A stretch of 64,000 nt of DNA from Firmicutes bacterium UBA6811 (GCA_002452295.1 DKEX01000001.1:29-64028); one strand, 5' to 3'; shown: positions 7,657-59,514, counted from the first letter of the stretch. Program-made: numbers and translations. The notes: generated by a model not told the origin, from the sequence alone.

Positions 7657-8049
<393 letters not shown>

Positions 8050-34408: not shown

Positions 34409-36709
34409 ATGTGGAGGCACGTGCGGAGAGGGGGAGACAACGTGGGAGAACCGGTGCGGCCGCAACAAGAAACCGGGTCGGGTGAGGAAAACGATGCAGC
34501 CACCGACGTGGCGGTGCTCGCGCTTTCGGGCATGACGTGCGCTTCATGCGTGGCCAGGGTGGAGCGGGCGCTCCGCCGCGCCCCGGGCGTGCTCGACGCC
34601 GCTGTGAACCTCGCGACCGAGAGGGCGACCGTCCGCTACAGCCCCGACGATACCTCCCCAGCCGACCTCGTGAGGGTGGTCCAGGACGCCGGTTACGATG
34701 CCCGCGAGGTCCGCGATGAAGACAGCGGCGCCGCAAGGGACAGGGAGCAGCGGCAGCGCGAGGCCGAGATAAGGCGCCAGAGGTCCCTCTTCGTTCTTGC
34801 GGCCGCTTTCTCGCTGCCGCTTCTGTCTCTTATGCTTTCGCATCTCTTCGGCGCGCACCTCCCGCCGCTCCTCGCAAACCCCCTGTTCCAGTTCGCCCTC
34901 GCCACCCCGGTGCAGTTCGTGGCCGGTTGGCAGTTCTACAGCGGGGCGTACGCCGCGCTTCGCGCGCGCTCCCCCAACATGGACGTGCTCGTCGCCCTCG
35001 GCACCACGGCCGCGTACGGCTTCAGCGTGTACCAGACGTTCGTCGGTCGCGGCCACGTCTACTACGAGTCCTCGGCGGTGGTCATCACCCTTGTGCTCCT
35101 CGGGCGGCTGCTTGAGGCCCGCGCGAAGGGAAGGACCTCCGAGGCAATGCGGAAGCTGATGGGGCTTGCGCCCCGCGCCGCGCACGTGGTGCGCGGCGGT
35201 CAGGAGGTGGACGTGCCCACGGAGGACGTGCGCGCAGGCGACATCGTGGTGGTGAGGCCTGGCGAGAAGATACCGGTGGACGGGGTGATCGCCGAGGGCA
35301 CGTCCGTGGTGGACGAATCCATGCTTACGGGCGAGAGCATCCCGGTGGAAAAGGGGCCCGGGGACGAGGTCACAGGGGCGACGGTGAACAGGCACGGCTC
35401 ATTCAAGTTCCGGGCGACCAGGGTCGGCAGGGACACGGTCCTCTCGCAGATCGTGCGGATGGTGGAGGAGGCCCAAGGGTCCAAGGCGCCCATCCAGCGG
35501 CTCGCCGACGTCGTCGCAGGATACTTCGTTCCGGCAGTGCTGGGGGTCGCCCTCGTTGCCCTGTTGAGCTGGCTCGTTGCTACGGGCGATCCGGGCCGCG
35601 CCTTCTTCGCCTTCACGGCGGTCCTCGTCATCGCGTGCCCGTGCGCCCTCGGCCTCGCCACGCCCACCGCCATCATGGTGGGGACGGGAAGGGGAGCTGA
35701 GGCGGGCATCCTCATCAGGGGGGCGGAGCACCTCGAGAGGGCGCACAGGATCGACACCGTGGTGTTCGACAAGACCGGGACCATCACGAAGGGCGAGCCG
35801 GAGGTGGTGGGCGAGGCCGTGGGTGCGGCCGCGCCGTCGCCGGGGGCCTACGTCGAAGAGATGCTGAGGCTCGCCGCGTCGGGCGAGATACGGTCGGAAC
35901 ACCCCCTCGGCGCCTCGATCGTGAGGCGCGCGCACGCTCTCGGGATCGCGCTTGGCGAGCCGTCGAGCTTCGAGGCGGTCCCGGGCAAGGGCATCCGCGC
36001 CCAGGTGGACGGGCGCACCGTGCTCGTGGGGACGCCGCGTTTCCTGGAGGAGGCTGGCGTGGACGTTCCCCAGGGGGTCGAGGAGGCGCGTCGCGACATG
36101 GAAAAGGAGGGCAAGACCGCGATGCTCGTGGCGGCGGACGGGCGGACGCTCGGCGTCATCGCAGTGGCCGACACCGTGAAGGAAACCTCGCGCGAGGCCA
36201 TCCGCGCCCTGCGGGGGCTTGGCGTGGAGGTGGTGATGATGACCGGGGACAACGAACGCACGGCGCAGGCCATCGCGCGACAGGTGAGCATCGAGAAGGT
36301 GCTCGCGGAGGTGCTCCCTGGCGACAAGGCCAGGGAGGTCCAGCGCCTTCGCCAGGAGGGCAGGGTCGTGGCGATGGTGGGGGACGGTATCAACGACGCG
36401 CCCGCGCTTGCCGCCGCAGACGTTGGTATCGCCATGGGCACGGGCACCGACATAGCCATGGAGGCCGCCGACATCACGCTCATCCGGGGCGACCTGCGGG
36501 CCGTTGCCGCGGCCATTCGCTTGAGCCGCCGCACCATGACGACCATCCGCCAGAACCTCTTCTGGGCCTTCATCTACAACATCATCGGCATACCGCTTGC
36601 GGCCCTCGGCCTTCTGTCGCCGGTGATCGCCGGCGCGGCCATGGCGTTCTCGTCGGTATCGGTCGTCACCAACTCCCTCAGGCTGCGCAGGTTCGACCCC
36701 TCGAGATGA
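34409..36709 (+). CDS. copA: Copper-translocating P1B-type ATPase.
   Basis: HMA domain [19 protein letters not shown] transmembrane metal site (IACPCALGL), DKTGTIT phosphorylation site, [10 protein letters not shown]. Confidence 0.85.
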
Positions 36710-36954
36710 TTACTGGGATAATTGCAGGAAGGAACGTCGCTCGCATACGACGAATATGCCTGGTGGCGATCCGAGGCTCGTCAGGCTCCGGCCGCGTTGT
36801 CGGCGTGGTCCTTACAGTGGACCTGGCCAAGCGAGACAGTGAGATCAAGATCCTTCTGGGATGCTCGGAGGAAGAGATCGCTGACATCATGAGTGTCCTG
36901 AGCTCCGGCCCCATGCGTGCCCCGCTGGTGCGGCGATTCGCGCCGGCAACATGA
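36706..36954 (+). CDS. Hypothetical small protein (82 aa) translationally coupled to copA and to the downstream TPR gene.
   Basis: ATGA overlap with the copA stop, and its own TGA overlaps the ATG of the TPR gene. No recognisable domain, and local GC is lower than the surroundings. Confidence 0.25.
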
Positions 36955-38003
36955 GCGTTTGCGAAATGCAAGGGGATGGTGATCCTGTGCTAAACTCAGA
37001 CGGGGCACGCACGAGGAAGCATTATCGCGATCTCGTCAACGAACGCAGGCGCGAGGGAAAGCTGCAGGAAGCCGAGTCCGTCGTGCGCGAGGCCATTTTA
37101 GCATACCCCGCGGACCTCTCCTTCCAGGCGGATCTTGCCGACATCATGTATCGGCGAGATCGCCTGGAGGAAGCCCAGGCCGTCGCCGACGAGGTGCTGA
37201 GGCTCGATCCCGCGCATTACCAGGCCCTTATGGTGGACGGCAACGTATACTTCAAGCGGCGCCAGTACGAGCGCGCACGGGAGTATTTCGTGGCGGCGGA
37301 CGCGATCTCCCACACGAGTTACTCCGCAGGGCGCCTCGCCGAGGCCGAGCTGCGGCTCGGCATGTATCGCGAGGCGATGGACCGCTCGCTCCAGGCCCTC
37401 GAACGGCACCCCAACGATGGCTGGCTGGTCTCCCTCGTGGCGCGCGCTTACGAGAAGCTGGGCGACGTGGATAAAGCTATCGAGTGGTACGAAAAGGCAA
37501 GGGAGCTTAATCCGAAGAACAGTTTCGTATATACACAGTACGTGAAGCTGAAAGGGCGGCGCAAGGAGCCTGCCACCTACGCTAAGGAACTCGACGGGAT
37601 AATGAAGGTCAGGGAGCGCGCGCATGATCCGAACCTCCTTGTCCTGAAGGGAGACGTGCTCCAGCGCGCGGGGGATCTCTCGGGCAGCATCGGGTGTTAC
37701 GAGGAGGCCGCGCGCCTTGCGCCGGAGGATGCTTTCGTCGTGTCGAAGCTGGGGTTCGCCTGTCACAGGGCCGGGGACGACGAGAAGGCGATTCCCCTTC
37801 TCGAAGAGGTGCTCTCCCGCGACCCCGGGAACATGCACGCGCGGTCCGCCCTTGCCGCAGCTTACCGCAAGCTGGGCAGGTATGCCCAGGGCGCCGGATT
37901 CTTCGAGAGGCTGGCGCAGGACCACCCTTCCATGAAGGCTTTCTGGGGAGAGGCGAGGAAGCTCCGGTCAAAGATGGTCCCGGCGGAGGAGGAAGAGAGT
38001 TAG
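36951..38003 (+). CDS. Tetratricopeptide-repeat (TPR) protein.
   Basis: Several 34-aa TPR-like units (W-LG-Y-A-F-A-P helix-turn-helix pattern, e.g. EAQAVADEVLRLDPAHYQALMVDGNVYFKRRQYERAREYF). Stop codon abuts the TTG start of the next gene. Confidence 0.65.
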   Translation: MSVCEMQGDGDPVLNSDGARTRKHYRDLVNERRREGKLQEAESVVREAILAYPADLSFQADLADIMYRRDRLEEAQAVADEVLRLDPAHYQALMVDGNVYFKRRQYERAREYFVAADAISHTSYSAGRLAEAELRLGMYREAMDRSLQALERHPNDGWLVSLVARAYEKLGDVDKAIEWYEKARELNPKNSFVYTQYVKLKGRRKEPATYAKELDGIMKVRERAHDPNLLVLKGDVLQRAGDLSGSIGCYEEAARLAPEDAFVVSKLGFACHRAGDDEKAIPLLEEVLSRDPGNMHARSALAAAYRKLGRYAQGAGFFERLAQDHPSMKAFWGEARKLRSKMVPAEEEES

Positions 38004-41000
38004 TTGGTTATCCGCGATCTCGTTGAAGTTCCATCGGTGCGCACCGTGGTGCGACTTGCCGACGTTCTCGACCCCGCGCTTCGCAAGGGGCTTGTGGAGA
38101 GTTTCGTCGTGACGGACGAGGTGGAGCATGCCCTGGGGACGGTGCTCGGAAGCCTTGCGTCCGGGGTGGGCAAGGGCTTCTTCGTGGAGGGCAACTTCGG
38201 GTCGGGGAAGTCTCATCTTCTTGCGATGCTGAGGATGCTCCTGGAGGACCCGGCCACGAGCGCCGGGTTCGCCTGCAACATAGGGGCGCTATCGGAGATA
38301 GCGTTCAGGCGGTACCTGGTGGTCAGCATCTCCCTCGTGGACCATGGCTCACGTGAGTACCTGGAGGACATCGTGATGGACGAGATCGAGCCGCTCCTCC
38401 GCGGAGGTCACGGCTCGGATGCGCTGGACGTGCGCGCCTCCGATGCGAAGGAGCTTGCCACGTTCCTTGCGGAGATCGGTGCCAGGCTGGAGGCACGTTA
38501 CCCTGTGGAACTTGCGGAGTTCGTCGCCGAGCGGGGCCTGGGTGCTTCCGACGAGCTCTTCAGGCCGGCGCGGGCCGCCGATGTAGAGGCCTTCTTGAGA
38601 CAGGTGGGCGCGCCCTACCGCCTGCGGGTGAGCCGAAGGGAAACGTTTGCCCGGCTGTCGTCGCGCCTCCGCGACCAGGGGCTTGACGGGATGGTCATCC
38701 TCATCGACGAGCTTTCCGAGTTCCTCAAGGTGAGGCCGGGCAGCAGGGCGTTCAACGAGGACATCAGGTTTCTGCAGTTCCTGGCGGAACGCGGGTCCGA
38801 AATCCCCTGCTGGGTGGTGGCGACCCTGCAGGAGAGGCTCGAGGCCACGGGCGACGTCCCGCCGGAGGCGTTCGGGAAAACCAAGGATCGGTACCCTGTC
38901 AGGCTACGTCTTACAGGTACCCACATCAAGGAGATCATCGAGAAGCGCCTGGTGAGAAAGAAAGAGGGCGCCGACTACCACATACGGCAGATCTACGCCG
39001 ATCTTCGCGAGGCGTTTGGCGACGTGGGCTTCGGCCCCGACGAGTTCGTCGGCATGTACCCGGTCCACCCGGCCGCGGTGAACCTCCTTGACGAACTCAA
39101 GCCGCTGTTCTCCCAGCACCGCGGGGTCATAGACTTCATCCACTCGCAGCTTGCAGGCGACCCGGACCGCAGGATACCGGGGATGATCGACATGCCCTCT
39201 GACACCCTCCTCGGAGCGGACCGGATATTCGATCACTTCCGGGACCGCATCAGGGAGGTGCCGGAGCTCTCCGGCTATAGTGAGAAAGTTTACAGATATT
39301 ATGAGGCCGAGCTTCCGTCCCTCGTTCCCGACAAGGGCGAGCGCAGGCTCGCCGAGAAGCTCGTCAAGATCTTGATCCTTCAGGCGATATCGCCGCTCAG
39401 CAGAAAGGTCACCGTGAGCGACCTTGCCAGGCTTGCTCTGGAGCGGGTCACGACCCTTGAATCCAGTGTGAACTACGGCCTTGTCGCCGATGTGCTTGCG
39501 CGCCTCCACAGGAGCGGGTCGTACATCGCCTGCGAAGCTGCGAAGGATCCCCTCGAGACGCGCTATTATGTGGACCTCGCGGCCGACGCCGGAGTTGAGG
39601 TGCAGAGAAAGGCGGCATATATCAAGTCGGGGCTCTTTCCCGGCGACTCGCGTCTTCTTACGATGCTCGCGCCTGACGTGGACCCCGCACACCTCCCGCT
39701 CGAGACTCTCATCGCCGGGCCAAAGTGCGAGTCCACGCGCCACGTCGCGTGGCAGAGAACGAGCCGGGAGGCCCTCGTGGCGGTCCTGCGGTTCGACGAG
39801 ATCTCGCCTGACAGGCTCGCCGGGTGGGCGGACAGGCTTCTCACCGCCGAAACCGACTTCGTGCTCGTGATCGGGTGGCCACAGGAGACCTCCGAGCAGA
39901 TCCGGCACCTCGAGAGCGTGATTGTCCCCGAGCTTGCCAGGCTCGGCGTTGCGGATGCATTCGTCTTCTGGGCCCCGGAGGGGCTCGACGCGCCCGGACG
40001 CGAGCGCGACCTGGACGCGCTCCTCGAGGTCCTGGCGAGGCGTCTGCTGTGTGAGGAGATCTCACGGGAAGGCACGTCCTCGGCAGCGGCCGTGAGAAGC
40101 TATCTCGAGGCCCTGTTGGAGCAGGACAGGCTTCGGGTGCGAGAGCTGTACCGCGAGCTGTACAGCCGTGGCTCACTCATCAGCGGGCGCGGCGACACGG
40201 TGCTTGATCTCAGCGAGGGTGGTGCAGGGAGCTTCGAGCAGGCCCTCGACAGGGCGGGCGCTGCTGCGCTGACGCGGAGGTTTCCGGCACACATGGAGGT
40301 GGCTCCACGATCGGAGGCGCTGACTCCCGGCGTCCTTCAGCGGTGCATAACGGACTTCCTCGGCCCGGGCGCCGGCATCGAACCTGTGAAGATAGCTGAC
40401 CATGCCGTTGCCTCAGCCGTGGAGGGGTTCTTCTGCCCGATGGGCCTGGCGAGGAGGACGGCACGGGGGTATTCCGTCACCGTCGACGCCGGCTCGAACC
40501 CTCTCGTGGCGGCCGCGCTCGCCAGCGTCAGGGAGGAGAAGGCTTCGTTCCGTGACGTGTACCTCGGCTTGCGTAAGGGCCCTTACGGCCTTGCCCGCGA
40601 CTCCTTCCAGGTGCTCCTGACGACCCTCGTGTGCACCGGGCTCGTCTCGGCATACATGGGTGGCAGAAAGATGGCCCCAGGCGCGCTGAAATCGTTCAAC
40701 TTCTGGAAGGTTGACGCCTTCGGGAGGGGCGAAGCGCTCGCCCCGGAGCTTCAGGACGCCGTGTCCGAGGTGGGGATGATACCCTCGCGGCTGCGAAAGG
40801 GGTCGGCCACCATAGCCCGCCAGCAGGAGATATGGGACTTTCTCGGCCAGTGGAAGAGGGAGGCGGAGGCCCTTGCGACCACGACGAAGTCGCGCCTCGC
40901 TGAGCTTCGGGACTATCAGGCCCTCGGGTTCCTCGACTTCGACGGCGCGCTCCGCGAGGCAGACGAGGTTGCGCGCGTTGCGGCCGAGGTAAAGACGTCG

Positions 41001-42062
41001 TACTCTTCGCAGGAAGGGATCGAGCGTTTCCTCCACGCTTACAGGACTTCCCCCTATTTCGAGAGGTACTACGGGCGTGTCGTGAGACTCGGGCAGTTCC
41101 TCGGCGCTGATCTCGACAGGTTCCTGGCCATTTTCGGGTACCTGACGTCGAGCCACCTCGTGATCCCACGTGACATGCGCTTCTCCGAACTCGAGCAGCG
41201 ACGCCGGGAGCTCATCTCGCTTGCGTCTGACGAGGAGTGCATATTCGACGCTGGGCGCTGGCAGCGTCTCGTGGACGGGTTCGAGGAGTTCCAGGAGAAC
41301 TACATCCGTGTGTACCTCGAGGAACACTCGAGGATGCTGGGGCAGGCCAGGTTCGCCGGGTACGACCGGCTGGAGAGCTCGAGGGCCTTCGGCCTCCTGC
41401 GGCAGCTTTCGAAGGTCCAGTTCATCGCGGTGAAGGACGACATGGTGAGGGTCGAGCGCGCACTCGCCGCCGTGAGGGCCAGGCGGTGCGATGGGCCTGC
41501 CGAGAGGATGCTGAAGGTGAGCCCCGTATGCGGGTGCGGTTTCCACCTGGGCGACGAGGTTTCTCTTACCCCGGTTGACAGGATCGCGGAGATGGTCGAG
41601 TCGGGCGTGAGGGAGTATCTTGCAGGCCTGCGTTCGGCGGAACACATGGAGAAAATCAGGGGGCACGTTGCCGGCCTGGAGGCAGTAGGAAAGCGGCATA
41701 TCGCCGAGCCGGTAAGATGCCTGCTTGCCATGGATCCCGCGGCGCCTGGGCTTGTGGAGGAGATGGCCGACATCGTGACCCCCTCGGCGATGGAGGCGGT
41801 TTCGCAGGCCCTTTCCGGCCGGGTACTCATGGTGGACCGCGATGTCGACGAGCTGTACGAGCGCATCGTAGGCCGCACTTTCCCGCTGGAGAAGGTCATG
41901 GAGGTCTTTCGCGAGTGGCTGGAGGGCCCGAGCGAGGTGGCTCCGGGGACCTACGTCAGGATCACCGAAGGGCGGCGGCTTCCCGCCTGCGACGGATTTT
42001 CCGAAGGGGCTGGCAACGCATCTTCCGAAGGTGGTGATGCTCCCGTTACGGGAGCGGGGTAG
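38004..42062 (+). CDS. Large BrxC/PglY-like P-loop NTPase (1352 aa).
   Basis: N-terminus resembles the BrxC N-terminus. Walker A GNFGSGKSHLLAMLRMLLED (compare BrxC GFFGSGKSHFLKxLSYLLEN), preceded by FVVTDEVEHAL. Walker B MVILIDELSEF. A long alpha-helical C-terminal region follows. TTG start at 38004 follows GGAGGAGG. Confidence 0.55.
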   Translation: MVIRDLVEVPSVRTVVRLADVLDPALRKGLVESFVVTDEVEHALGTVLGSLASGVGKGFFVEGNFGSGKSHLLAMLRMLLEDPATSAGFACNIGALSEIAFRRYLVVSISLVDHGSREYLEDIVMDEIEPLLRGGHGSDALDVRASDAKELATFLAEIGARLEARYPVELAEFVAERGLGASDELFRPARAADVEAFLRQVGAPYRLRVSRRETFARLSSRLRDQGLDGMVILIDELSEFLKVRPGSRAFNEDIRFLQFLAERGSEIPCWVVATLQERLEATGDVPPEAFGKTKDRYPVRLRLTGTHIKEIIEKRLVRKKEGADYHIRQIYADLREAFGDVGFGPDEFVGMYPVHPAAVNLLDELKPLFSQHRGVIDFIHSQLAGDPDRRIPGMIDMPSDTLLGADRIFDHFRDRIREVPELSGYSEKVYRYYEAELPSLVPDKGERRLAEKLVKILILQAISPLSRKVTVSDLARLALERVTTLESSVNYGLVADVLARLHRSGSYIACEAAKDPLETRYYVDLAADAGVEVQRKAAYIKSGLFPGDSRLLTMLAPDVDPAHLPLETLIAGPKCESTRHVAWQRTSREALVAVLRFDEISPDRLAGWADRLLTAETDFVLVIGWPQETSEQIRHLESVIVPELARLGVADAFVFWAPEGLDAPGRERDLDALLEVLARRLLCEEISREGTSSAAAVRSYLEALLEQDRLRVRELYRELYSRGSLISGRGDTVLDLSEGGAGSFEQALDRAGAAALTRRFPAHMEVAPRSEALTPGVLQRCITDFLGPGAGIEPVKIADHAVASAVEGFFCPMGLARRTARGYSVTVDAGSNPLVAAALASVREEKASFRDVYLGLRKGPYGLARDSFQVLLTTLVCTGLVSAYMGGRKMAPGALKSFNFWKVDAFGRGEALAPELQDAVSEVGMIPSRLRKGSATIARQQEIWDFLGQWKREAEALATTTKSRLAELRDYQALGFLDFDGALREADEVARVAAEVKTSYSSQEGIERFLHAYRTSPYFERYYGRVVRLGQFLGADLDRFLAIFGYLTSSHLVIPRDMRFSELEQRRRELISLASDEECIFDAGRWQRLVDGFEEFQENYIRVYLEEHSRMLGQARFAGYDRLESSRAFGLLRQLSKVQFIAVKDDMVRVERALAAVRARRCDGPAERMLKVSPVCGCGFHLGDEVSLTPVDRIAEMVESGVREYLAGLRSAEHMEKIRGHVAGLEAVGKRHIAEPVRCLLAMDPAAPGLVEEMADIVTPSAMEAVSQALSGRVLMVDRDVDELYERIVGRTFPLEKVMEVFREWLEGPSEVAPGTYVRITEGRRLPACDGFSEGAGNASSEGGDAPVTGAG

Positions 42063-42112
42063 GGGAGGCGAATCGTCCCTTCCTCCCGGAGCAGACTTCC
42101 TCGGGTGAGGCG

Positions 42113-43522
42113 GTGGACGGAGGGCCTACGGCACGGGAACATCGGCCGGGAGGCCCGCAGGAAACCCCGGTCCCGTCGGGCGATGCCCCGGCGCACGACG
42201 GCGGCGGATGGCGCAGGCTCATCATGCCCGGGGGCTCAGAAGACGATCTCTTGGGGGCAACAAAGGCGTTTTTCGCCCACCTGGACTCCGGCCAGGCCGA
42301 GGCCGGCGGGCTCGACGACGCCGCCCGCGAGCTCGGCCTGGCGTATGCCCATCGCACAGGTCACAGCCCCGCGGACGCCAGCGTTCAGCTGATCCGGCCG
42401 GAGGCGGGAACCTGCGACGCCCGGGAGGGCCTGAGAACCTCCTGCATGGCGGCGTGTCTTGTCGCGGCGCGGCTGGCCTCGACCACGGGCGTGCTCCGGG
42501 GCCGCGTGGCCCGGGCGGCGGGGTGGCGTAACTTCGAGGAGCTGTACGTCGGCATGGTGGCCGGCGCGCGGGCCGATGCCGGGGCGCTGTGGAGCATGGC
42601 GTCACAGCTCGGTCTCGCGGCGTTTGTGCCGAAGCACCTGAGGCCGGCGCAGTTGGACTTTGCGCTCTCTGAGGCGGACAGTGCGTTTGGCCGGTTCTAC
42701 ACGCAGCTTTACACCGGCGAGATCGGCGAAAGGGCGCCTGCGCGCGGTTCGGCGGGGATCTCCGGGCTTGACCGTGACCGTGACGGTGACCGTGACCGGG
42801 AGGGGGACGTGCCGGCGAACCTTGCGTCCGTGCTCGCAGGGTTCACACGCGGAGCGACTCGGTCGCTTCCGATCCGGCCCGAACACCTTTACTTCGTGCT
42901 CATGGACGGCATGCGCCTCGACGCGTGGTGGCGCGTGCAGGAAGAGGTGCTCTCTGCGTGCGATCGGGAGATCGCGGAGATCGCGGGCGGCATGACGTGG
43001 GCCGAACCGCCGACCGTGACGGACCCACAGGTACAGGCGCTGCGACAGGCTGGGTTTGCAGGTCCCATCATCGACCTCGACGATCCGGAGGGTTTTTTCG
43101 AGGGCGGCGCGACCACGTGCGACTGCGACAACATGGGGCGCGCCCGCGCATACTGCCGATTCGTCCGGTTCGGGTTCATCGACAGGAAGATCCACGCGAC
43201 GAGCGACCCTCACCATGTGGTCCTCGACGAGGTGGCGCTTGGGGTGCAAAGGTGGCTCATTCCCTGGCTTGCGGCCATGCCTGCCCGGAGCCTCGTGGTG
43301 ATCGTCTCTGACCACGGCTACCGCGAGAACTCGAGCCCTGCCCGGGACAACGGCGCTCAGGTCGAGCACAGGCTCGCTGGCGGCCTCGGTGGCCCCTCGA
43401 GACCCCGGTACGCTCACGGAGGGAACTCCATGGCGGAGGTCATCGTCCCCTGGTCGGCGCTGCTGTTCCGGGACGCCCCCCGGGCCTGGCTTCGAGGTTC
43501 TCCTCAACTGCCGCCACGATAG
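42113..43522 (+). CDS. PglZ-domain protein (alkaline-phosphatase superfamily), short form (469 aa).
   Basis: [14 protein letters not shown] and [11 protein letters not shown]...[14 protein letters not shown] match PglZ core motifs (metal-binding D and H). N-terminal start is uncertain. The C-terminal approx. 25 aa run antisense into the leuB remnant and are probably not native. Confidence 0.6.
42770..42799 (+). repeat. Tandem hexanucleotide repeat (GACCGT)x5, imperfect. Encodes [10 protein letters not shown] inside the PglZ-domain gene.
   Basis: gaccgtgaccgtgacggtgaccgtgaccgg read directly from the sequence. Confidence 0.7.
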
Positions 43523-43900
43523 CATCGGCCAGCTCGCGCGTGGTCGCGCTTCCGCCAAGGTCGGGGGTCAGCGCGCGGCCTTCGCGCAGGACCTTCGTGA
43601 CCGCGTTCTCGACGGCTGCGGCGCGCCGGGCCTCCCCGAGGTGCCTCATCAGCATCATGGCGGCAGACAGGATGGCGGCGGCGGGGTTTGCGACTCCCTG
43701 GCCGGCGATCTCCGGTGCGCTGCCGTGCACCGGCTCGAAGACCGCGGCCTCGTCTCCGATGTTAGCCCCGGGCGCAAGGCCGAGGCCGCCCACGAGGCCT
43801 GATGCGAGGTCTGATATGATGTCCCCATACAGACTTCGCTGCGAGGATCACCTCCGGACCGATGCCATCCCCGCGAATCAGCGTTACCCTGTGCGACATG
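43440..43900 (-). pseudogene. leuB: 3-isopropylmalate/isocitrate dehydrogenase remnant. The N-terminal approx. 24 aa are joined out of frame to the C-terminal approx. 120 aa.
   Basis: Minus-strand ATG at 43900 with RBS GGAGGTGAAAACC gives [18 protein letters not shown]. After about 24 codons the homology continues in another frame as [24 protein letters not shown]...[19 protein letters not shown]. About 200 internal codons are missing. Confidence 0.6.
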
Positions 43901-43908
43901 GCCGGTTT

Positions 43909-44230
43909 TCACCTCCGCATCATGGAGACTGTCGATGGTGAAGGGCACTGCCAGCCGGGAGCAGCGCGACCGTAGCGGAGCGAGGCGTGTATCGCGGGAA
44001 CTGCAACCGCTGGACGGATGGCCACGCGCAGAGGACCGGGCTCGATGATCCCTGCCTTGGCGCCCATCTCCACCGCCATGTTGCACAGGGTGAACCTGGC
44101 GTCAACTCCAAGGTGCTCCACGGCCTCGCCGCAGAACTCGCACGACACAGACGATGCCCCCGGCGCGGGCGCCGGTGCCCGAGTGGCTTGACAGGATCTT
44201 CTCGGCGATGGTCCTTCCCAAGGCGACTAT
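43909..44230 (-). pseudogene. leuC: 3-isopropylmalate dehydratase large-subunit remnant (fragments only).
   Basis: [14 protein letters not shown] (LeuC N-terminus) and, frameshifted, [23 protein letters not shown] (mid-LeuC aconitase motif). Residues about 35-200 and the C-terminal half are absent, and there is no leuD. Confidence 0.5.
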
Positions 44231-44257
44231 GCTTCCCGGATGGTCTGGCCGCTCGCG

Positions 44258-45406
44258 CTACTTGTGGGCGGCCCCGTCCCGCATGGCGTCCTCGTATATG
44301 TATACAAGCTCCTTGTCAAAGAGGGGGCGCTTGAGGTTCACCGCTATGGCTCGCACCGCGGGCAGCATGGCCGCAGCTTCCTGGTCAGTGAGGTTGATGC
44401 CGTACTCCAGGAACTTCGACTTCAGGGAATGCTTGCCGGAGTGCTTCCCGACGACTATCTGCCTCTGGAGCCCGACCTCCTCCGGCGGGAAGACCTCGTA
44501 GGTTCTGGGGTTCTTGAGGACCCCGTCTGCGTGGATGCCCGACTCGTGGGCGAACGTGTTGGCGCCGACTATGGGCTTTGAGAGCGGGATCTCCCTGCCG
44601 GAGGCCCTCGCCACATACTCGGACAGCTCACGGAACCTCGTCGTCTTGATCCCGAGGTCGATGCCGTAGATGTGCTTGAGGGCCATCACGACCTCCTCCA
44701 GGGCGGCGTTGCCTGCGCGCTCGCCAAGGCCGTTCACCGTGACTCCGACGTACCTGGCGCCGGCCTGCACGCCCGCCAGGGCGTTGGCGGTTGCCATTCC
44801 AAAGTCGTTGTGAGTGTGGGTCTCGATGTCGAGCCCGGTCTCCTCGTGGAGGGCCTTGACGCGGTCGTGCGTGGTGAGGGGGTCGAGCAGGCCCACGGTG
44901 TCACAGTAGCGCAGCCTGCACGCGCCCGCGCCCTTCGCGGCCATGGCAAACTCCAGGAGGAAGGCGGGGTCGGCGCGGGTCGCGTCCTCAGCGTTGACTG
45001 ATATGTACAGCCCGTGCTGTGCTGCGTGGACCACCGCCTGTGTCATGGCCTCGAGGACCTGCTGCCGTGTCATCTGGAGTTTGTGGAAAATGTGTATGTC
45101 GGATACCGAGATCGATATGGCGACGGCGTCAACTCCGCACTCGATGGAGGCGTCTATGTCGGAAAGAACAGCCCTGTTCCACGCCATTACGCTCGCCTTC
45201 AGGCCCGCCTGCGCTATGGCCTTCACCGCCTCCTGCTCGTCTCCGCCCATGGCGGGGATCCCGGCCTCGATCTGGTCCACGCCGATTTCGTCCAGCATCC
45301 TCGCAATCCGCAGCTTCTCCGTGCGAGCAAACACGACGCCTGCTGTTTGCTCTCCATCCCGCAACGTGGTGTCGACGATGAGTACCTTCCTGTCTCTGTC
45401 GTTCAT
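44258..45406 (-). CDS. 2-isopropylmalate synthase/homocitrate synthase family protein, short form (LeuA/NifV/CimA-like), apparently intact.
   Basis: HMGL-like TIM barrel [12 protein letters not shown] and [12 protein letters not shown]. 382 aa from MNDRDRKV. Confidence 0.75.
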
Positions 45407-45550
45407 GGCTTCTTCCCTCCTCTGGTTCTCTGGTGGCGACAATGCATATCTATGCACATCCACCGTCTGGCCGACTATTATGTAGGAACGCGTTACCAGC
45501 CGGGAGCCGACCGGGCGCGTGCATGTGCATGTATATGTATATGGTCCTAA

Positions 45551-45578
45551 ACTATACCCATTCGTCCCTTCCTGTCAA
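45551..45578 (-). promoter_or_regulatory. Minus-strand sigma-A promoter TTGACA-16-TATAGT for the leuA-like gene.
   Basis: Reverse complement of 45551-45578 reads TTGACAGGAAGGGACGAATGGGTATAGT. Confidence 0.45.
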
Positions 45579-45753
45579 GGGCAAATTTGCACCATTATAC
45601 CTTTTTCGGGTGGGCCCGGCGAGGAAATCAGGCGGGTTTCCGGCCGGGTGCGCCAGCGGCCCCAGCTCGGGCCCAAAAACGGCGGGGAGGAAAGCGGCTG
45701 GTTTGCAAGAAGTATTACTTACGCCGGTTGGTCCGCTGGCATGAATCGCTTCT

Positions 45754-47034
45754 GTGGGGGGACTTCGATTGGTTCTGGTCTCATGCAGCTATGTGCCGCT
45801 TGAGATCCCGCTTGCCCTCGGGATACCGGCGAAGAGAGCCATTTTCCACGAGCAGGCTCCTTCCTGCGAGGCGTATCTTCCACGTGATTTCTGCCCGTAT
45901 GCGAAGGCGTTCGCGCGGGAGCACGGGGAGGGCCACGTGATTGCCATAGCGGGATCCTGTGACGCCATGCGCCGCGCCTGCGACGCCCTGCGCTACTTCG
46001 GCCTTGCCCCAGAAGTCCACTTCATAGATGTGCCCAGGAGCTGCGACGGTGATGCCGAGGCATACTACGCTGGGGTCCTGAGGGACTTTGCTCTCGAGCT
46101 GGCGCGTACGGCCCGACGGGAACGGGGTGACTCGGCGGAGGCCCGGGTGGATGTGGACGGGCCTTCGTTCCGGCGGCGACTCGTTGCCGTGACGCAGTCC
46201 ATGAACTCGCTCCGGCGCGGGGTTTCGCGGGTGCTCGAACTTCAGGCCACGGGCCGGATATCGGCCATGGACGCAATGGGCATAGCGCTCGAGGTGAACG
46301 ATGCCCTTGGTGTCAGCCGGCAGGGCGACTGCGGCAGTCCTTCGGACGTGTCGGCTGACGCACGGGAGGCTGGAGGTGGCGAGAACGGAGGACTCGTGGC
46401 CGCTGCGGCGGTGTTGGAGAGCGCGATGCGTCTCGCTGGGCCAGCCGGGCCGCGCAGCGGAGGAAGCGACCGAAACCGTGGTAGCGCCGGCGTCGGCGGA
46501 AGGGTGCGCATCGGGGTAGCGGCGACGTGCCTCCTGGAGCCGGCGCTTCTCGGCGTTCTCGAGGATGCCGGGCTCATTGTGGCCTTCGTCGATTCATGCC
46601 TTGGGTCGCGGAGCTTTGACTTCGATGTCCCTGTGGATGAAGGACGGCGCGACGGCGAGGGGAACGGGCATGCAGTTGCAGACGCAGGCGCGGGCGCCGA
46701 TGGGAATTCCGGCGCAAGCTGCGACCCGTTTTACGAGCTGGCCCGTGCTTACCTCGGCAAGCCGGCGTGCCCCAGGATGTTCGTGGGAGACGAGCGAGCG
46801 CGGCGTATCGAATCCCTGGCGAGGTCATCCAGGGCGCAGGGGATTGTATACTTTGCGCCGAAGTTCTGCGACCAGGCGTACTACGATTTCGCGGAGCTGA
46901 AGAAGCAGGTGGGGGAAAGGAGCGGGTTGCCCATGCTTCTTGTGGAGGGCGAGTACGGGTCGGCGGAGTCCGGCCAGACCCTTACCCGTGTTGCGGCGTT
47001 TAGGGAGATGCTGGCAGGACGGTCGGGCCTGTGA
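45754..47034 (+). CDS. 2-hydroxyacyl-CoA dehydratase family subunit (HgdB/HadC/BcrC/BadD-like, HGD-D family).
   Basis: SCSYVPLEIPLALG N-terminus, Cys ligand pattern (CDAMRRAC...; YFAPKFCDQAYYDF). Confidence 0.65.
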   Translation: MGGLRLVLVSCSYVPLEIPLALGIPAKRAIFHEQAPSCEAYLPRDFCPYAKAFAREHGEGHVIAIAGSCDAMRRACDALRYFGLAPEVHFIDVPRSCDGDAEAYYAGVLRDFALELARTARRERGDSAEARVDVDGPSFRRRLVAVTQSMNSLRRGVSRVLELQATGRISAMDAMGIALEVNDALGVSRQGDCGSPSDVSADAREAGGGENGGLVAAAAVLESAMRLAGPAGPRSGGSDRNRGSAGVGGRVRIGVAATCLLEPALLGVLEDAGLIVAFVDSCLGSRSFDFDVPVDEGRRDGEGNGHAVADAGAGADGNSGASCDPFYELARAYLGKPACPRMFVGDERARRIESLARSSRAQGIVYFAPKFCDQAYYDFAELKKQVGERSGLPMLLVEGEYGSAESGQTLTRVAAFREMLAGRSGL

Positions 47035-48323
47035 TGACGGGTTTCGGCATCCCATCCGGGCTCCGGCGGGCCGCACGGCGGGCGGTCCGGCCAGAGGTGG
47101 TGCTGCGCCGGCGCTGGGCGTACCGGGTCGCCTCCGCGGCGCTGCCGCTGCTTGAGAGGAACGGAGCGAGACCATACAAGGTCGCGGCGACAAGGTGTGT
47201 GCTTTCTGACTTCGCCGACGCCTACCTCGGCAGAAAGCCTTGCATATTTGCGAGCGCCTTCGTGCCGACCGAGCTGGTTTACGGCATGGGCGGCGTGCCG
47301 TTCCTGCCCGAGGCCGCAGCCGGCCTTGCGGCGGCCTTCGGCCTTGCGGCCGAAAGCCTTTCGGCCTGCGAGGCCCTATGGTATTCGCCAGACCTTTGCA
47401 GCTTCCACCGGGCCGGCCTGGGTGGGGCCGCGGCTGGCCTTCTGCCGCGCCCGTCCGCCGTGATCGTCTCGTCACACCTCTGCGACGGGGGGAAGAGGTC
47501 GCTCTTTCACATGAGCCGGCTCGCCGGGTGCCCGTTCTACATGCTGGACGTTCCGTACAGCTCCTCCGACCGGGCCGCGCGGTGGCTTGCTTCCCAGATC
47601 GAGCAGGTTGCCAGGGACCTTCCGCGGCGCGTGCCCGGCCTCTCCGCAGAGGGGCTGCCGCACGCGCTTGAGCGCTCCAACGAGGCCCTTACCGAGTATG
47701 AGCGAACCTCGGCGCTCAGGCGAAACGTGCCCGCTCCCTGGCGCGGGTCCGAGGCGCTGAACTACGTTCTGCTGTTCCTGTGGTCGTGGGGAAGCCCCTG
47801 GCTTGCGCCGTTCTATCGCGCGCTCCGGGTGCATCTCGAGAGGACGGTTGCCGCAGGTGACTTCCCCGTCCTGGGCGAGCGACACAGGCTCCTGTGGCTG
47901 AACCTGAGGCCCTATTACGATACGGGCGTGTTCAAGTATCTCGAAGGCGACTGGGCGTCGTCGGTGGCTTTCGAGGAGTACAGCTTCGCGTACTGGCCGA
48001 GGCTGAACCCCCGCGAGCCCTTCGCGAGCCTTGCGGAGAAGATGATGTCAAACTTCGGCTGGGGCCCGATCGAGCGCCGGCTCGAAGTCATCGCAAGGCT
48101 CGTGGGCGATTACTCCATCGACGGGGTGGTGCAGTTCGGCCAGTGGGGGTGCAGGCAATCCAACGGCGGCGCAGCAATCATAGCCCGGGAACTGAAAGGG
48201 ATGGGCATCCCCTTTCTCAACCTGGACGGGGACGGGGTGGACGCGAGATGCGGAAGCGAGGCGCAGGCCGTCACCAGGCTCGGGGCCTTCATAGAGCTTC
48301 TCGAGGCTAGGAGGGGCGGGTGA
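47031..48323 (+). CDS. 2-hydroxyacyl-CoA dehydratase family subunit (HgdA/HadB-like, HGD-D family).
   Basis: ASAFVPTELVYGMGGVPF, SSHLCDGGKRS, FGQWGCRQSNGG. Start overlaps the previous stop (GTGATGA). Confidence 0.65.
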   Translation: MMTGFGIPSGLRRAARRAVRPEVVLRRRWAYRVASAALPLLERNGARPYKVAATRCVLSDFADAYLGRKPCIFASAFVPTELVYGMGGVPFLPEAAAGLAAAFGLAAESLSACEALWYSPDLCSFHRAGLGGAAAGLLPRPSAVIVSSHLCDGGKRSLFHMSRLAGCPFYMLDVPYSSSDRAARWLASQIEQVARDLPRRVPGLSAEGLPHALERSNEALTEYERTSALRRNVPAPWRGSEALNYVLLFLWSWGSPWLAPFYRALRVHLERTVAAGDFPVLGERHRLLWLNLRPYYDTGVFKYLEGDWASSVAFEEYSFAYWPRLNPREPFASLAEKMMSNFGWGPIERRLEVIARLVGDYSIDGVVQFGQWGCRQSNGGAAIIARELKGMGIPFLNLDGDGVDARCGSEAQAVTRLGAFIELLEARRGG

Positions 48324-48329
48324 CGAAGG

Positions 48330-49103
48330 ATGTTCGTAGCCGGAGTAGATGTCGGGTCCACGACCACCAAGGCTGTGCTTTTGAGTGAGGGCAAGATTGC
48401 GGGATGGCACGCGATGCCTACAGGGGTGGACCTCGCCGACGCAGCGGCCGAGTGCCTCGATAGCGTGTGTCAGCGGGCCGGCACCGGCCCCGACATGCTT
48501 GCGGCCATCGTGGCGACCGGGTATGGCAGGGACAGGGTGGCCGCTGCCGCGAGGACCGTTACCGAGATCACGTGCCACGCCCGTGGCGCGCGGGCCCTTG
48601 TTTCGTCGGCGCTCGTGGTGGTGGACGTCGGAGGCCAGGACTCGAAGGTCATCCGGCTGGACGATGACGGCATGGTTGCGGACTTCGTGATGAATGACAA
48701 GTGCGCGGCGGGCACCGGAAGGTTTCTCGAGGTGATGGCCGCAAGGCTCAAGGTGCCGCTGGACGAGTTCGGCGCGAGATGGCGAAAGGCGAGGGAGGCC
48801 GCGAGGATCTCCAGCACCTGCACGGTGTTTGCGGAGTCGGAGGTCATAAGCCTCCTCTCGCGAGGCGTGGCCCCGGAGCCCATAATCAGGGGCCTGTGCG
48901 ACGCGGTGGCGGACAGGCTTGCGGGAATGGTCCATCGCGTGGGGCTTGGCGGCGATCTCGTGATGACCGGCGGGGTGAGCCGAAATGATGGCGTCAAAAG
49001 GTCGCTGGAGGAGAGGCTCTCCGCGGGTGTGACCGTTCCGAACGGATCGCAGTTCGCCGGGGCGTACGGCGCCGCTCTTATCGCTTTCGAGCTTGTGTCG
49101 TGA
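48330..49103 (+). CDS. CoA-substrate-specific enzyme activase (HgdC/BcrAD/BadFG ATPase, archerase).
   Basis: Acetate/sugar-kinase fold GVDVGSTTTKAVLL, VDVGGQDSKVIRL, and the [4Fe-4S] helix-cluster-helix region DKCAAGTGRFLE. Confidence 0.75.
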   Translation: MFVAGVDVGSTTTKAVLLSEGKIAGWHAMPTGVDLADAAAECLDSVCQRAGTGPDMLAAIVATGYGRDRVAAAARTVTEITCHARGARALVSSALVVVDVGGQDSKVIRLDDDGMVADFVMNDKCAAGTGRFLEVMAARLKVPLDEFGARWRKAREAARISSTCTVFAESEVISLLSRGVAPEPIIRGLCDAVADRLAGMVHRVGLGGDLVMTGGVSRNDGVKRSLEERLSAGVTVPNGSQFAGAYGAALIAFELVS

Positions 49104-49296
49104 GACAGGAGCGGAACTTCTGCGGGGAGGCCGCGTTCAAATTAGATGGTGCTTTTCCGACCGCCCGTCCCGGATGTGGATGCATGCCCTCGCCCGTGAC
49201 GGGCTTTTCGTCGAACTCATCGCCCCTGCCGGTGCCTGGACGACGGGGCCTTTGACGTTTGATAGGGACACAGCTGGAAAGGGGGAACACGTTGTT

Positions 49297-58881: not shown

Positions 58882-58962
58882 GGCGAGCGGTGGTGCAGAG
58901 CGTGTACAGGCAAGCGCAGCACTGCACGAGGAGGGCTACCAGGCTGAAGGAGGCATGACGAG

Positions 58963-59514
58963 TTGGTCATCGAGATCTCTACTCCGCTCACGGAAGAAAC
59001 CGTTGCCCGGCTCAAGGCCGGCGACAATGTGAGGATATCAGGAGTGCTTTACACCGCGCGGGATGCTGCGCACAAGCGGCTGGTGGCGCTGATCGCTGAG
59101 GGGAAGGAGCTTCCCATGGACATCCGGGGTCAGATCATATACTACGTCGGCCCCACCCCGGCGCGGCCTGGGATGCCCATCGGCTCTGCCGGGCCGACCA
59201 CCAGCTACAGGATGGACTCGTACGCCCCGCTTCTCATGGAGCATGGGCTCAAGGGTATGATCGGCAAGGGGAGCCGCTCTCAGGCCGTCAGGGACGCCAT
59301 GGTCAGGTTCAAGGCAGTGTACTTCGCCGCCATCGGCGGTGCTGGCGCGCTTCTCGCCAAGTGCGTGAAGGCATCGGAGATTGTGGCATACGAAGACCTC
59401 GGCCCCGAGGCTATCAGGAAGCTCACCGTGGAAGGCTTCACGGTTGTTGTGGTCAACGACATATACGGGACCGACCTTTACGAAGAGGGCGTGCGCAGGT
59501 ACAGAATCGGGTGA
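58963..59514 (+). CDS. Fe-S hydro-lyase beta subunit (FumB C-terminal-type / TtdB).
   Basis: YYVGPTPARPGMPIGSAGPTTSYRMD and KGMIGKGSRS swivel-domain motifs. TTG start. Confidence 0.7.
   Translation: MVIEISTPLTEETVARLKAGDNVRISGVLYTARDAAHKRLVALIAEGKELPMDIRGQIIYYVGPTPARPGMPIGSAGPTTSYRMDSYAPLLMEHGLKGMIGKGSRSQAVRDAMVRFKAVYFAAIGGAGALLAKCVKASEIVAYEDLGPEAIRKLTVEGFTVVVVNDIYGTDLYEEGVRRYRIG

What the first reader, a model, noticed from the sequence alone, without database searches (positions are those of the whole stretch)
43440..45406. Decayed leucine-type operon abutting the PglZ gene: leuA-like gene intact, leuC and leuB reduced to deletion-scarred remnants.
On the minus strand an intact 382-aa LeuA/NifV-like synthase is followed by LeuC fragments ([14 protein letters not shown], then out of frame [17 protein letters not shown]). 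After those comes a leuB remnant that retains its own RBS and the first 24 codons ([18 protein letters not shown]). These are fused out of frame to the C-terminal approx. 120 residues, so about 600 bp of internal sequence is gone. leuD is absent. The PglZ ORF overlaps the leuB remnant convergently by about 80 bp. This pattern is typical of recent insertion and deletion events flanking an acquired island. It supports the idea that the BrxC-like/PglZ module is horizontally acquired, and it means the PglZ 3' end may itself be non-native.
Basis: seen in the sequence. Interest (0 to 1): 0.55.

Follow-up and report, generated by a model that had tools for sequence, protein, structure and literature searches.

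The report
Deletion-scarred citrate-branch operon beside inserted island
A three-step metabolic operon has lost its last three genes to three internal deletions, right next to a 6.8-kb inserted BREX-like gene cassette. This is a clean but ordinary case of recent gene decay beside acquired DNA, and the inserted cassette is the more unusual part.

Summary
On the minus strand an intact 382-aa HMGL-type synthase (44258-45406) is followed by two aconitase/LeuC-type fragments, no LeuD, and a LeuB/IDH-type gene reduced to 22 N-terminal and 109 C-terminal codons.

Two related MAGs (L001, L002) carry the intact four-gene operon. Against them the window shows deletions of 497, 1203 and 605 nt. The middle one is replaced by about 105 nt of unmatched filler.

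The window also holds a 6.8-kb insertion (36710-43505), placed exactly where the convergent stop codons of the IDH-like gene and a P-type ATPase overlap in the relatives. Three other assemblies are 99.8-99.9% identical across this region, so it is not a sequencing artefact.

Three corrections apply:
- The operon is probably not for leucine. The synthase is 67% identical to the genetically validated Re-citrate synthase HM1_2993, which implies a citrate to 2-oxoglutarate branch.
- The "PglZ gene" is the C-terminal part of a BrxC/PglY-PglZ fusion of about 1,780 aa, split here by a -1 frame change. The fusion is always paired with a TPR gene.
- The 83-nt ORF overlap arises because both genes lost their native stops at the junction.

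As a finding this is ordinary. The TPR plus BrxC-PglZ cassette, which has no methyltransferase, may be undescribed.

The parts
45551..45578 (-). Near-consensus sigma-70-type promoter-like site (TTGACA-16-TATAGT), about 145 nt upstream of the synthase ATG
   Evidence: 11 of 12 matches; 0.3 expected in shuffles. A consensus match only; function was not shown.
44258..45406 (-). Intact 382-aa HMGL-type synthase, most likely a Re-citrate synthase. It would be annotated as homocitrate synthase.
   Evidence: Pfam HMGL-like + HCS_D2. TIGR02660 scores 526 bits against a 462.9 cut-off. It is 67% identical to HM1_2993, 45% to H. modesticaldum NifV and 40% to LeuA. dN/dS is 0.07. The protein is identical in L081-L083.
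44150..44221 (-). Remnant 1 of the aconitase/LeuC-type large subunit: start codon plus codons 1-24
   Evidence: tblastn shows 83% identity to L001/L002 LeuC-like aa 1-24. The nucleotide block matches L002 11147-11257.
44149..44150 (.). Deletion junction 1: 497 nt (L002 11258-11754, about codons 25-190) are missing, causing a frame shift
44043..44149 (-). Remnant 2 of the large subunit (about aa 190-226 of 418), out of frame with remnant 1
   Evidence: Pfam Aconitase positions 202-236, E 8.7e-11. It is 86% nt identical to L002 11755-11861.
43938..44042 (.). About 105 nt of filler with no detectable source. It replaces 1203 nt (L002 11862-13064): the 3' ~45% of the large-subunit gene (about codons 226-418), the whole LeuD-type small-subunit gene and the spacers between them.
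   Evidence: blastn-short finds matches only in the same-strain assemblies.
43834..43937 (-). Spacer with the RBS (GGAGGTG), ATG 43899 and the first 22 codons of the LeuB/IDH-type dehydrogenase
   Evidence: 77% nt identity to L002 13065-13168. tblastn shows 83% identity over aa 1-24. The sequence is shown.
43833..43834 (.). Deletion junction 3: 605 nt (L002 13169-13773, codons ~23-223) are missing, causing a frame shift
43506..43833 (-). C-terminal remnant of the IDH-type dehydrogenase (aa 224-332 of 334)
   Evidence: Pfam Iso_dh 254-348/348, E 3.2e-30. It is 77-80% aa identical to L001/L002.
43440..43505 (-). A 22-codon read-through tail of the dehydrogenase frame into island DNA. The native last 2 codons and the stop were lost.
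36710..43505 (+). A 6.8-kb insertion, absent from L001/L002. It holds the TPR gene and the frame-split BrxC/PglY-PglZ fusion.
   Evidence: blastn synteny break. No terminal repeats were found, no integrase appears in the gene calls, and GC content is not atypical.
36951..38003 (+). A 350-aa TPR protein, the conserved partner of the fusion
   Evidence: Pfam/NCBIfam TPR hits. It is collinear at 26-36% identity with the TPR genes upstream of the fusion in L164, L165, L168, L170 and L171 (E 1e-27 to 1e-49).
38004..42062 (+). BrxC/PglY-like P-loop ATPase part (DUF6079), 1352 aa. It corresponds to aa 3-1302 of the ~1,790-aa fusions.
   Evidence: Pfam PF19557, E 2.2e-39. NCBIfam BrxC E 1.7e-25, below its cut-off. 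PADLOC BrxC. The family profile (A1) matches PDB BrxC at E 1e-16 to 1e-18. tblastn collinearity is.
42038..42059 (+). A 22-nt stretch where both reading frames are open (TGCTCCCGTTACGGGAGCGGGG). Restoring a single missing base here would fuse the two ORFs.
   Evidence: three-frame translation. The same sequence is present in L081-L083.
42113..43522 (+). PglZ-type (alkaline-phosphatase superfamily) part, 469 aa. Its last ~15 codons are non-native, and the stop at 43520-43522 lies in leuB-derived DNA.
   Evidence: No Pfam, NCBIfam or PADLOC hit. A full HMMER scan gave 68 hits, mostly the C-termini of 1,730-1,850-aa proteins. The family profile (A1) matches PorX at E ~1e-9. The AF2 model has pLDDT 76.5 and its top Foldseek hit is PorX at E 4e-10. 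The invariant residues D265, T303, D357, H361, D400, H401 and H435 are kept.
34442..36709 (+). Flanking P-type (HMA/E1-E2) ATPase. Its last residues were changed at the insertion junction.

Best explanation
The ancestor of this organism carried a four-gene operon: a Re-citrate-synthase-type synthase, a two-subunit aconitase/LeuCD-type dehydratase and a LeuB-type isocitrate dehydrogenase. Together these would run the oxidative branch from oxaloacetate plus acetyl-CoA to 2-oxoglutarate, the glutamate precursor. The operon ended convergently against a P-type ATPase gene, with the two stop codons overlapping.

In the window's lineage a 6.8-kb cassette (a TPR gene plus a BrxC/PglY-PglZ fusion gene) was inserted exactly at that overlap. 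The insertion removed the last two codons and the stop of the dehydrogenase and the native stop of the cassette's own gene.

The three genes downstream of the synthase then lost about 2.3 kb of their roughly 2.9 kb through three separate internal deletions (497, 1203 and 605 nt). This left frame-shifted stubs that cannot encode any complete domain. The synthase itself remains intact, under strong purifying selection, and has a good promoter.

The cassette's large gene is also broken into two ORFs by a one-base frame change.

What is shown: the anatomy, the comparison with intact relatives, the insertion polarity and the reproducibility across assemblies. What is inferred: the enzymatic assignment (by homology), the order and cause of the events, and whether the split cassette still works.
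For: - The intact operon is present in the nearest relatives L001 and L002, with full-length NCBIfam coverage. The same four-gene order recurs in many Clostridia loci.
- Block-by-block alignment gives exact deletion sizes and junctions.
- The synteny break and junction sequences show that 36710-43505 is extra DNA placed at the 8-nt stop-codon overlap.
- All 16 relatives examined end the dehydrogenase 2-5 residues after the break point.
- Three further assemblies from different samples are 99.8-99.9% identical over 6-16 kb, including every junction.
- The synthase is 67% identical to HM1_2993, whose deletion abolished the oxidative TCA entry in H. modesticaldum (PMC12016533). It is 45% identical to that organism's NifV and 40% to its LeuA.
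- On the window branch, dN/dS is 0.07 for the synthase and about 0.1 for the remnants, and the remnant blocks contain no stops. Decay is therefore recent relative to the split from L001/L002.
- The cassette's homologues are single proteins of about 1,780 aa, preceded by a homologous TPR gene in five unrelated neighbourhoods.
Against: - No enzyme activity or expression data exist.
- NCBI's own equivalog model would name the synthase homocitrate synthase.
- The dehydrogenase of the relatives reaches no equivalog cut-off: isocitrate dehydrogenase NF006529 scores 413 bits against a 510 cut-off.
- The order of insertion and deletions, and any causal link between them, is not resolved.
- No intermediate alleles were found.
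- The island has no integrase, terminal repeats or compositional signature, so the mechanism of insertion is unknown.
- The 105-nt filler is unexplained.
Confidence: 0.85

Rival explanations
1. The operon is a genuine 2-oxoacid chain-elongation set rather than a citrate to 2-oxoglutarate branch. It would then be homocitrate synthase, homoaconitase and homoisocitrate dehydrogenase (as in AksA/D/E/F or alpha-aminoadipate lysine synthesis), or a leucine/citramalate pathway.
For: TIGR02660 nifV_homocitr is passed at 526 bits against a 462.9 cut-off. The relatives' large subunit passes the hacA_fam subfamily model. The small subunit scores HacB2 at 182 bits (cut-off 230) and the dehydrogenase scores AksF2 at 372 bits (cut-off 540).
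Against: The synthase is 67% identical to the genetically validated Re-citrate synthase HM1_2993, against 45% to a true NifV and 40% to LeuA. No LeuA allosteric domain is present, and leuA_bact scores 326 bits against a 599 cut-off. No nif genes lie within +/-10 kb. The best dehydrogenase model is isocitrate dehydrogenase. The literature states that this clade is routinely misannotated as homocitrate synthase (PMC12016533).
Confidence: 0.15
2. The cassette-bearing arrangement is ancestral. L001/L002 lost the 6.8 kb by deletion, and the operon decay in the window is unrelated to it.
For: The island shows no mobility signature. Only two close relatives are available for comparison.
Against: Such a deletion would have had to recreate native-length C-termini for both convergent genes, with an 8-nt stop overlap. 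All 16 more distant relatives end the dehydrogenase as L001/L002 do, whereas the window's 22-residue tail is unique. The cassette sits in unrelated neighbourhoods elsewhere.
Confidence: 0.06
3. The scars are assembly or sequencing artefacts: collapsed or chimeric contigs, or indel errors.
For: The window and its relatives are metagenome assemblies.
Against: Three other assemblies from different samples and pipelines (ENA, Logan, JGI) reproduce all junctions, with only 11-13 substitutions per 15.7 kb and no indel in the region. The lesions are deletions of 497-1203 nt, not single-base errors.
Confidence: 0.02
4. The short ORFs (39, 79, 45 and 117 aa) are functional small proteins retained by selection.
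For: The 117-aa ORF is called as a gene in the three other assemblies fetched, and the 79-aa ORF in two of them. dN/dS of the remnant blocks is low.
Against: Each covers only a fraction of a domain: Aconitase positions 202-236 of 463 and Iso_dh positions 254-348 of 348. The low dN/dS is measured on a branch that includes the long period before decay. No relative has such ORFs.
Confidence: 0.02

Closest known systems
Re-citrate synthase of the HM1_2993 / Thermoanaerobacter type (Clostridia; usually annotated as homocitrate synthase), with linked aconitase and isocitrate dehydrogenase genes
   Same: The window synthase is 67% identical over 369 aa to HM1_2993 and has the same length and the same HMGL-like + HCS_D2 architecture. 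In relatives it is followed by aconitase-family and IDH-family genes.
   Different: Here the partner genes are destroyed. In H. modesticaldum the gene stands alone, away from its partners (PMC12016533). Activity was not tested here.
Bacterial pseudogene formation by deletion next to horizontally acquired islands
   Same: There is presence/absence polymorphism against close relatives. The insertion lies between convergent gene ends. The neighbouring genes were removed by multiple internal deletions, with few point lesions, which fits the known deletional bias of bacterial genomes (established knowledge).
   Different: No integrase, tRNA target, direct repeats or compositional shift marks the island. 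The acquired gene is itself frame-split.
BREX / Pgl systems (core pair BrxC/PglY ATPase plus PglZ phosphatase-like protein)
   Same: Both hallmark domains are present. The N-terminus matches DUF6079/BrxC (Pfam, PADLOC, and PDB BrxC at E ~1e-17). The C-terminus is a PglZ-type alkaline-phosphatase fold with the metal and nucleophile residues conserved.
   Different: In homologues the two domains are fused in one polypeptide of about 1,780 aa. The only constant partner is a ~330-aa TPR protein. No PglX/BrxX methyltransferase, BrxA, BrxB, BrxL or PglW is nearby, either in the window or in five other loci. The PglZ part is below the Pfam and PADLOC thresholds.
PorX (type IX secretion response regulator with a PglZ/alkaline-phosphatase-superfamily effector domain)
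   Same: It is the best structural and profile match of the 469-aa ORF.
   Different: PorX has a CheY receiver domain rather than a BrxC-type ATPase. Sequence identity is only 11-12%. The resemblance is at the level of the domain fold only.

Membership tests
2-isopropylmalate synthase (LeuA) | Score above the equivalog cut-off, and a C-terminal LeuA allosteric/dimerisation domain | tested here: not met
   TIGR00973 leuA_bact scores 325.7 bits against a 598.7 cut-off. The protein is 382 aa, with only HMGL-like + HCS_D2. It is 40% identical to H. modesticaldum LeuA.
NifV-type homocitrate synthase | Sequence model TIGR02660 above its cut-off | tested here: met
   526.2 bits against 462.9. However, the model evidently also captures the HM1_2993 clade.
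NifV-type homocitrate synthase | nif gene context, and closest similarity to a bona fide NifV | tested here: not met
   No nif genes occur in the called genes within +/-10 kb. Identity is 45% to H. modesticaldum NifV against 67% to its Re-citrate synthase.
Re-citrate synthase (HM1_2993 clade) | High identity to a genetically validated member | tested here: met
   66.7% identity over 369 aa, E = 0. The reference sequence comes from the supplement of PMC12016533.
Re-citrate synthase (HM1_2993 clade) | Re-face stereospecific citrate formation | not testable with these tools
   This needs an enzyme assay or isotopomer labelling.
Gene remnants / pseudogenes (aconitase large and small subunit, IDH-type dehydrogenase) | Partial coverage of an intact orthologue at the syntenic position, with frame disruption | tested here: met
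   The large subunit keeps 24 + ~37 of 418 codons, the small subunit 0 of 167, and the dehydrogenase 22 + 109 of 334. Two of the deletions are not multiples of three.
Horizontally acquired genomic island | Presence/absence against close relatives, with a derived state in the carrier | tested here: met
Horizontally acquired genomic island | Mobility genes, flanking repeats, a tRNA target or atypical composition | tested here: not met
   There is no integrase or transposase in the gene calls, no terminal repeats, no tRNA nearby, and GC is 0.64-0.70 against 0.66-0.70 in the flanks.
PglZ domain (PF08665) | Pfam model above the gathering score | tested here: not met
   No hit even at E <= 10. One homologue (P0003) scores 20.1 bits against a 25 cut-off.
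PglZ domain (PF08665) | Alkaline-phosphatase-superfamily fold of the PglZ/PorX type, with conserved metal-binding Asp/His and a Thr nucleophile | tested here: met
   Profile against PDB matches PorX at E 1.4e-9. Foldseek top hit is PorX at E 3.8e-10, prob 1.0. D265, T303, D357, H361, D400, H401 and H435 are invariant in 44 sequences.
BREX system (any described type) | BrxC/PglY ATPase and PglZ both present | tested here: met
   This holds at domain level, and below the NCBIfam cut-offs.
BREX system (any described type) | An associated modification enzyme (PglX/BrxX methyltransferase or PAPS reductase) and accessory Brx genes | tested here: not met
   None is present in the island, within +/-10 kb of it, or next to the fusion in five other loci.

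The most novel reading that the evidence does not exclude
The inserted cassette may represent an undescribed, minimal BREX-derived module. It would consist of a ~330-aa TPR protein plus a single polypeptide of about 1,780 aa that fuses a BrxC/PglY-type ATPase to a PglZ-type phosphodiesterase/nuclease domain. It would work without any DNA-modifying enzyme and move as a two-gene unit between housekeeping neighbourhoods of anaerobic Bacillota. The window copy (and L171) would be inactivated alleles, which hints that the module is costly or frequently lost.
Probability: 0.35. Interest if true: 0.6.

Novelty: new member of a known kind. Interest (0 to 1): 0.3.

Why it matters
For annotation, the region should be recorded as one intact Re-citrate-synthase-type gene followed by pseudogene remnants. 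It should not be recorded as several small "aconitase" or "isocitrate dehydrogenase" genes, as the gene calls in public assemblies currently do.

For physiology, this population has lost the linked route from citrate to 2-oxoglutarate. It must either use unlinked aconitase and IDH genes, use a reductive route, or import glutamate. That prediction can be tested on the full MAG.

For genome evolution, it is a well-resolved example of an insertion at the exact overlap of two convergent stop codons. The insertion is followed by deletional erosion of the neighbouring genes and by frame-splitting of the acquired gene itself.

The side result could widen the definition of BREX-related systems if it proves functional: a conserved TPR plus BrxC-PglZ fusion pair that lacks a methyltransferase.

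Tried and rejected
- A metagenome scan with the synthase protein, run to find intermediate alleles, returned nothing closer than 72% identity.
- Scans of viral contigs for the cassette failed. The alignment was too divergent to seed, and the single-protein scan found no relative.
- The word-indexed homologue search with the 469-aa ORF found only the protein itself.
- Pfam (also at E <= 10), NCBIfam, PADLOC and PDB phmmer gave nothing for that ORF.
- Single-sequence AlphaFold was unusable, with pLDDT 37.
- A repeat search across the island ends found no terminal direct or inverted repeats beyond chance-level short matches.
- The deletion junctions show at most 1-2 nt of microhomology, so no slippage mechanism can be argued.
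- The 105-nt filler matches nothing in the window or in any of the loci held at the time of that search. A weak 34% protein-level similarity to LeuC aa 236-286 (E 0.4) was rejected as noise.
- Rfam found no riboswitch or T-box leader upstream of the synthase. No terminator-like site lies in 43300-45800.
- A look-up of the ORF at 19194-21074, tried to annotate the left part of the window, found no record.
- Programmed -1 frameshifting at 42038-42059 was considered and not adopted. No X XXY YYZ slippery heptamer is present, and an independent in-frame TAG in L171 points to ordinary inactivation.
Full report
**Observation.**
- An ORF of 382 aa from ATG 45406 to stop 44258 carries Pfam HMGL-like (E 2.5e-81) and the homocitrate-synthase post-HMGL domain (E 7.6e-28).
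- Downstream lies a 39-aa ORF beginning [15 protein letters not shown].
- Next is a 79-aa ORF containing [17 protein letters not shown], which hits Pfam Aconitase positions 202-236 at E 8.7e-11.
- Next is a 45-aa ORF beginning [18 protein letters not shown], preceded by GGAGGTG.
- Last is a 117-aa ORF that matches the final quarter of Pfam Iso_dh (positions 254-348 of 348, E 3.2e-30).
- The 469-aa plus-strand ORF 42113-43522 overlaps that last ORF by 83 nt.

**Not an artefact.** A look-up of the exact synthase protein returned three other assemblies: ENA ERZ27315056, Logan SRR5323240 and JGI 3300001592.
- They are 99.8-99.9% identical to the window over 6.2-15.7 kb.
- The two longer assemblies differ by only 11-13 substitutions and no indel in the region.
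- An NCBI MAG contig (GCA_002441185.1) also carries this strain's downstream genes, although the stretch fetched from it does not reach the scarred region.

**Comparison with intact relatives.** A scan of one genome per species gave two close relatives, L001 (JAAYXB010000058) and L002 (JASEJE010000005). Their synthases are 92% and 90% identical to the window's.
- In both, the synthase is followed by ORFs of 418, 167 and 334 aa.
- These ORFs cover the NCBIfam models end to end: aconitase/3-isopropylmalate dehydratase large subunit family, LeuD/DmdB small subunit, and isocitrate/isopropylmalate dehydrogenase-type.
- The same four-gene order is found in many other Clostridia loci.

A gapped alignment of the window against L002 resolves four homologous blocks (protein-level confirmation):
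- 44260-44150 matches L002 11147-11257.
- 44149-44043 matches L002 11755-11861.
- 43937-43834 matches L002 13065-13168.
- 43833-43519 matches L002 13774-14085.

The window therefore lacks three stretches of the relatives' operon.
- 497 nt, corresponding to large-subunit codons ~25-190.
- 1203 nt, comprising the rest of the large subunit, the whole small subunit and the spacers between them. This stretch is replaced by ~105 nt that match nothing.
- 605 nt, corresponding to dehydrogenase codons ~23-223.

Junctions 1 and 3 are clean, with at most 1-2 nt of microhomology. No other copy of these genes lies in the 64-kb window.

**The island.** blastn synteny with L001/L002 resumes at window 36699, directly after the dehydrogenase gene of the relatives.
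- In L001/L002 the dehydrogenase stop (TGA) and the stop of a convergent P-type ATPase overlap by 8 nt.
- In the window, homology on the dehydrogenase side ends at 43506 and on the ATPase side at about 36709.
- So 36710-43505 (6.8 kb) is extra DNA.
- The dehydrogenase lost its last two codons and its stop, and now reads 22 further codons into island DNA. This explains most of the 83-nt ORF overlap.
- All 16 relatives examined end this protein 2-5 residues after the break point. The window state is therefore derived and the event was an insertion.
- The island has no integrase, no terminal repeats, no nearby tRNA and no compositional anomaly. How it arrived is unknown.

**What the operon is.** NCBIfam places the synthase above the cut-off of the NifV homocitrate synthase equivalog and far below all LeuA cut-offs.
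- A 2025 study showed by gene deletion that HM1_2993 of Heliomicrobium modesticaldum, annotated as homocitrate synthase, is the Re-citrate synthase that feeds the oxidative TCA branch. The same study notes that this Clostridia clade is generally misannotated (PMC12016533).
- Using the sequences printed in its supplement, the window protein is 67% identical to HM1_2993. It is 45% identical to that organism's true NifV, 40% to its LeuA, and 29-36% to the C. kluyveri and Dehalococcoides Re-citrate synthases.
- With an aconitase-family dehydratase and an IDH-like dehydrogenase downstream, the most likely pathway is oxaloacetate + acetyl-CoA to citrate to isocitrate to 2-oxoglutarate.
- This is an inference from homology. 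The dehydrogenase reaches no equivalog cut-off.
- "Leucine-type" is therefore correct only as a statement about protein superfamilies.

**Timing.** Nei-Gojobori estimates on the window branch are as follows:

| Gene or block | dN/dS on the window branch |
|---|---|
| Synthase | 0.07 |
| 109-codon dehydrogenase remnant | 0.11 |
| 22-codon dehydrogenase block | 0.10 |
| Two dehydratase blocks | 0.10 and 0.39 |

- The remnant blocks contain no internal stops.
- Most of their divergence from L001/L002 therefore accumulated under purifying selection. Inactivation is recent on that scale and was dominated by deletions.
- The synthase keeps a near-consensus promoter-like site at 45578-45551.

**What the "PglZ gene" is.** The 469-aa ORF has no hit in Pfam (even at E <= 10), NCBIfam, PADLOC or PDB by phmmer, and only itself in the word-indexed search.
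- A full HMMER scan of 1.8 billion representatives found 68 matches. About half of them (32) are proteins of more than 1,600 aa, mostly 1,700-1,850, whose extreme C-terminus aligns to residues ~255-452 of the ORF.
- Those long proteins carry DUF6079 (BrxC/PglY) at their N-terminus.
- They are collinear with the window's 1352-aa ORF (aa 3-1302) and then with the 469-aa ORF (aa 1609-1789).
- The two window ORFs are in different frames. Both frames are open over 42038-42059, a stretch with C and G runs, so restoring one base would fuse them.
- A profile of the family matches PDB BrxC at its N-terminus (E ~1e-17) and PorX, a PglZ-type alkaline-phosphatase-superfamily enzyme, at its C-terminus (E ~1e-9).
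- An AlphaFold model built with the family alignment (pLDDT 76.5) has PorX as top Foldseek hit (E 4e-10), followed by NPP/ENPP enzymes and alkaline phosphatases.
- The Asp/Thr/His core is invariant in 44 sequences, including the window's.
- Homologues end at about residue 454. The window ORF continues 15 codons further and takes its stop from leuB-derived DNA. The suspicion about a non-native 3' end is thus correct, but it concerns only the tail and not the domain.

**The cassette elsewhere.** In five unrelated neighbourhoods (L164, L165, L168, L170, L171) the fusion gene is preceded by a ~330-aa TPR gene (only 261 aa as called in L168).
- That TPR gene is collinear with the window's TPR protein (26-36% identity, E down to 1e-49).
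- No methyltransferase or other Brx gene is nearby, and the flanks are housekeeping genes.
- L171 has the fusion interrupted by an in-frame TAG inside conserved sequence. This looks like another inactivated copy.
- Among the window-strain assemblies, 10 of the 14 distinct variable sites fall in the island, with 6 nonsynonymous against 3 synonymous changes. This is a weak hint of relaxed or diversifying selection.
- Neither a recent comprehensive BREX survey (PMC12839542) nor full-text searches mention a TPR-associated BrxC-PglZ fusion. The library is incomplete, so this is not proof of novelty.

**Verdict.** It is a recently decayed operon next to an inserted BREX-like cassette. The pathway label and the nature of the "PglZ gene" need correction. 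As biology it is an ordinary process, hence the low interest score. The cassette is the item that might repay follow-up.

Noticed in passing
window 36951-43522; L164, L165, L168, L170, L171: A conserved two-gene cassette was found: a ~330-aa TPR protein followed by a BrxC/PglY-PglZ fusion of about 1,780 aa. It has no methyltransferase and sits in unrelated housekeeping neighbourhoods. It was not found in the BREX literature searched.
   Followed up: partly
L171 7962-7964: An in-frame TAG interrupts the fusion orthologue inside conserved sequence. The residues after it align with window BrxC-like aa ~1215-1245. This is a second, independent broken copy, or else a recoded stop.
   Followed up: partly
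window 42769-42798: A hexamer tandem repeat, (TGACCG)x5, encodes a [10 protein letters not shown] stretch. It lies in the low-confidence linker just before the PglZ-type domain.
   Followed up: no
window 43938-44042: About 105 nt of filler at the largest deletion has no match in the window or in any fetched locus except the same strain. Its origin is unexplained.
   Followed up: partly
window 45754-49103: A 2-hydroxyacyl-CoA dehydratase-like set lies divergent from the synthase: two HGD-D subunits plus a BcrAD/BadFG activator. The first subunit has a Gly/Ala/Ser-rich insert (about 46310-46504) that does not align with L002, and it shows the highest dN/dS of the flank (0.29).
   Followed up: no
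window 58021-59514: Class I fumarate hydratase alpha and beta subunit genes (Fumerase, Fumerase_C) are present. Another TCA-related function is therefore retained in the same window, which bears on how 2-oxoglutarate might still be made.
   Followed up: no
window 49138-49146: Three clustered strain-level substitutions separate the window from L081 and L082. One would be Q to stop in the long ORF starting at 49093, so the real start of this ABC-transporter ATPase gene is probably further downstream.
   Followed up: no
window 5679-5832 and 7664-8045: Two tRNA genes and a bacterial class A RNase P RNA (292 bits) were found.
   Followed up: no
window 45510-45545: An alternating purine-pyrimidine, AT-rich stretch (ATATACATATACATGCACATGCACGCGC, with (ATGTAT)x2.5 by TRF) lies in the divergent intergenic region between the synthase and the dehydratase genes. 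It is next to the promoter-like site.
   Followed up: no
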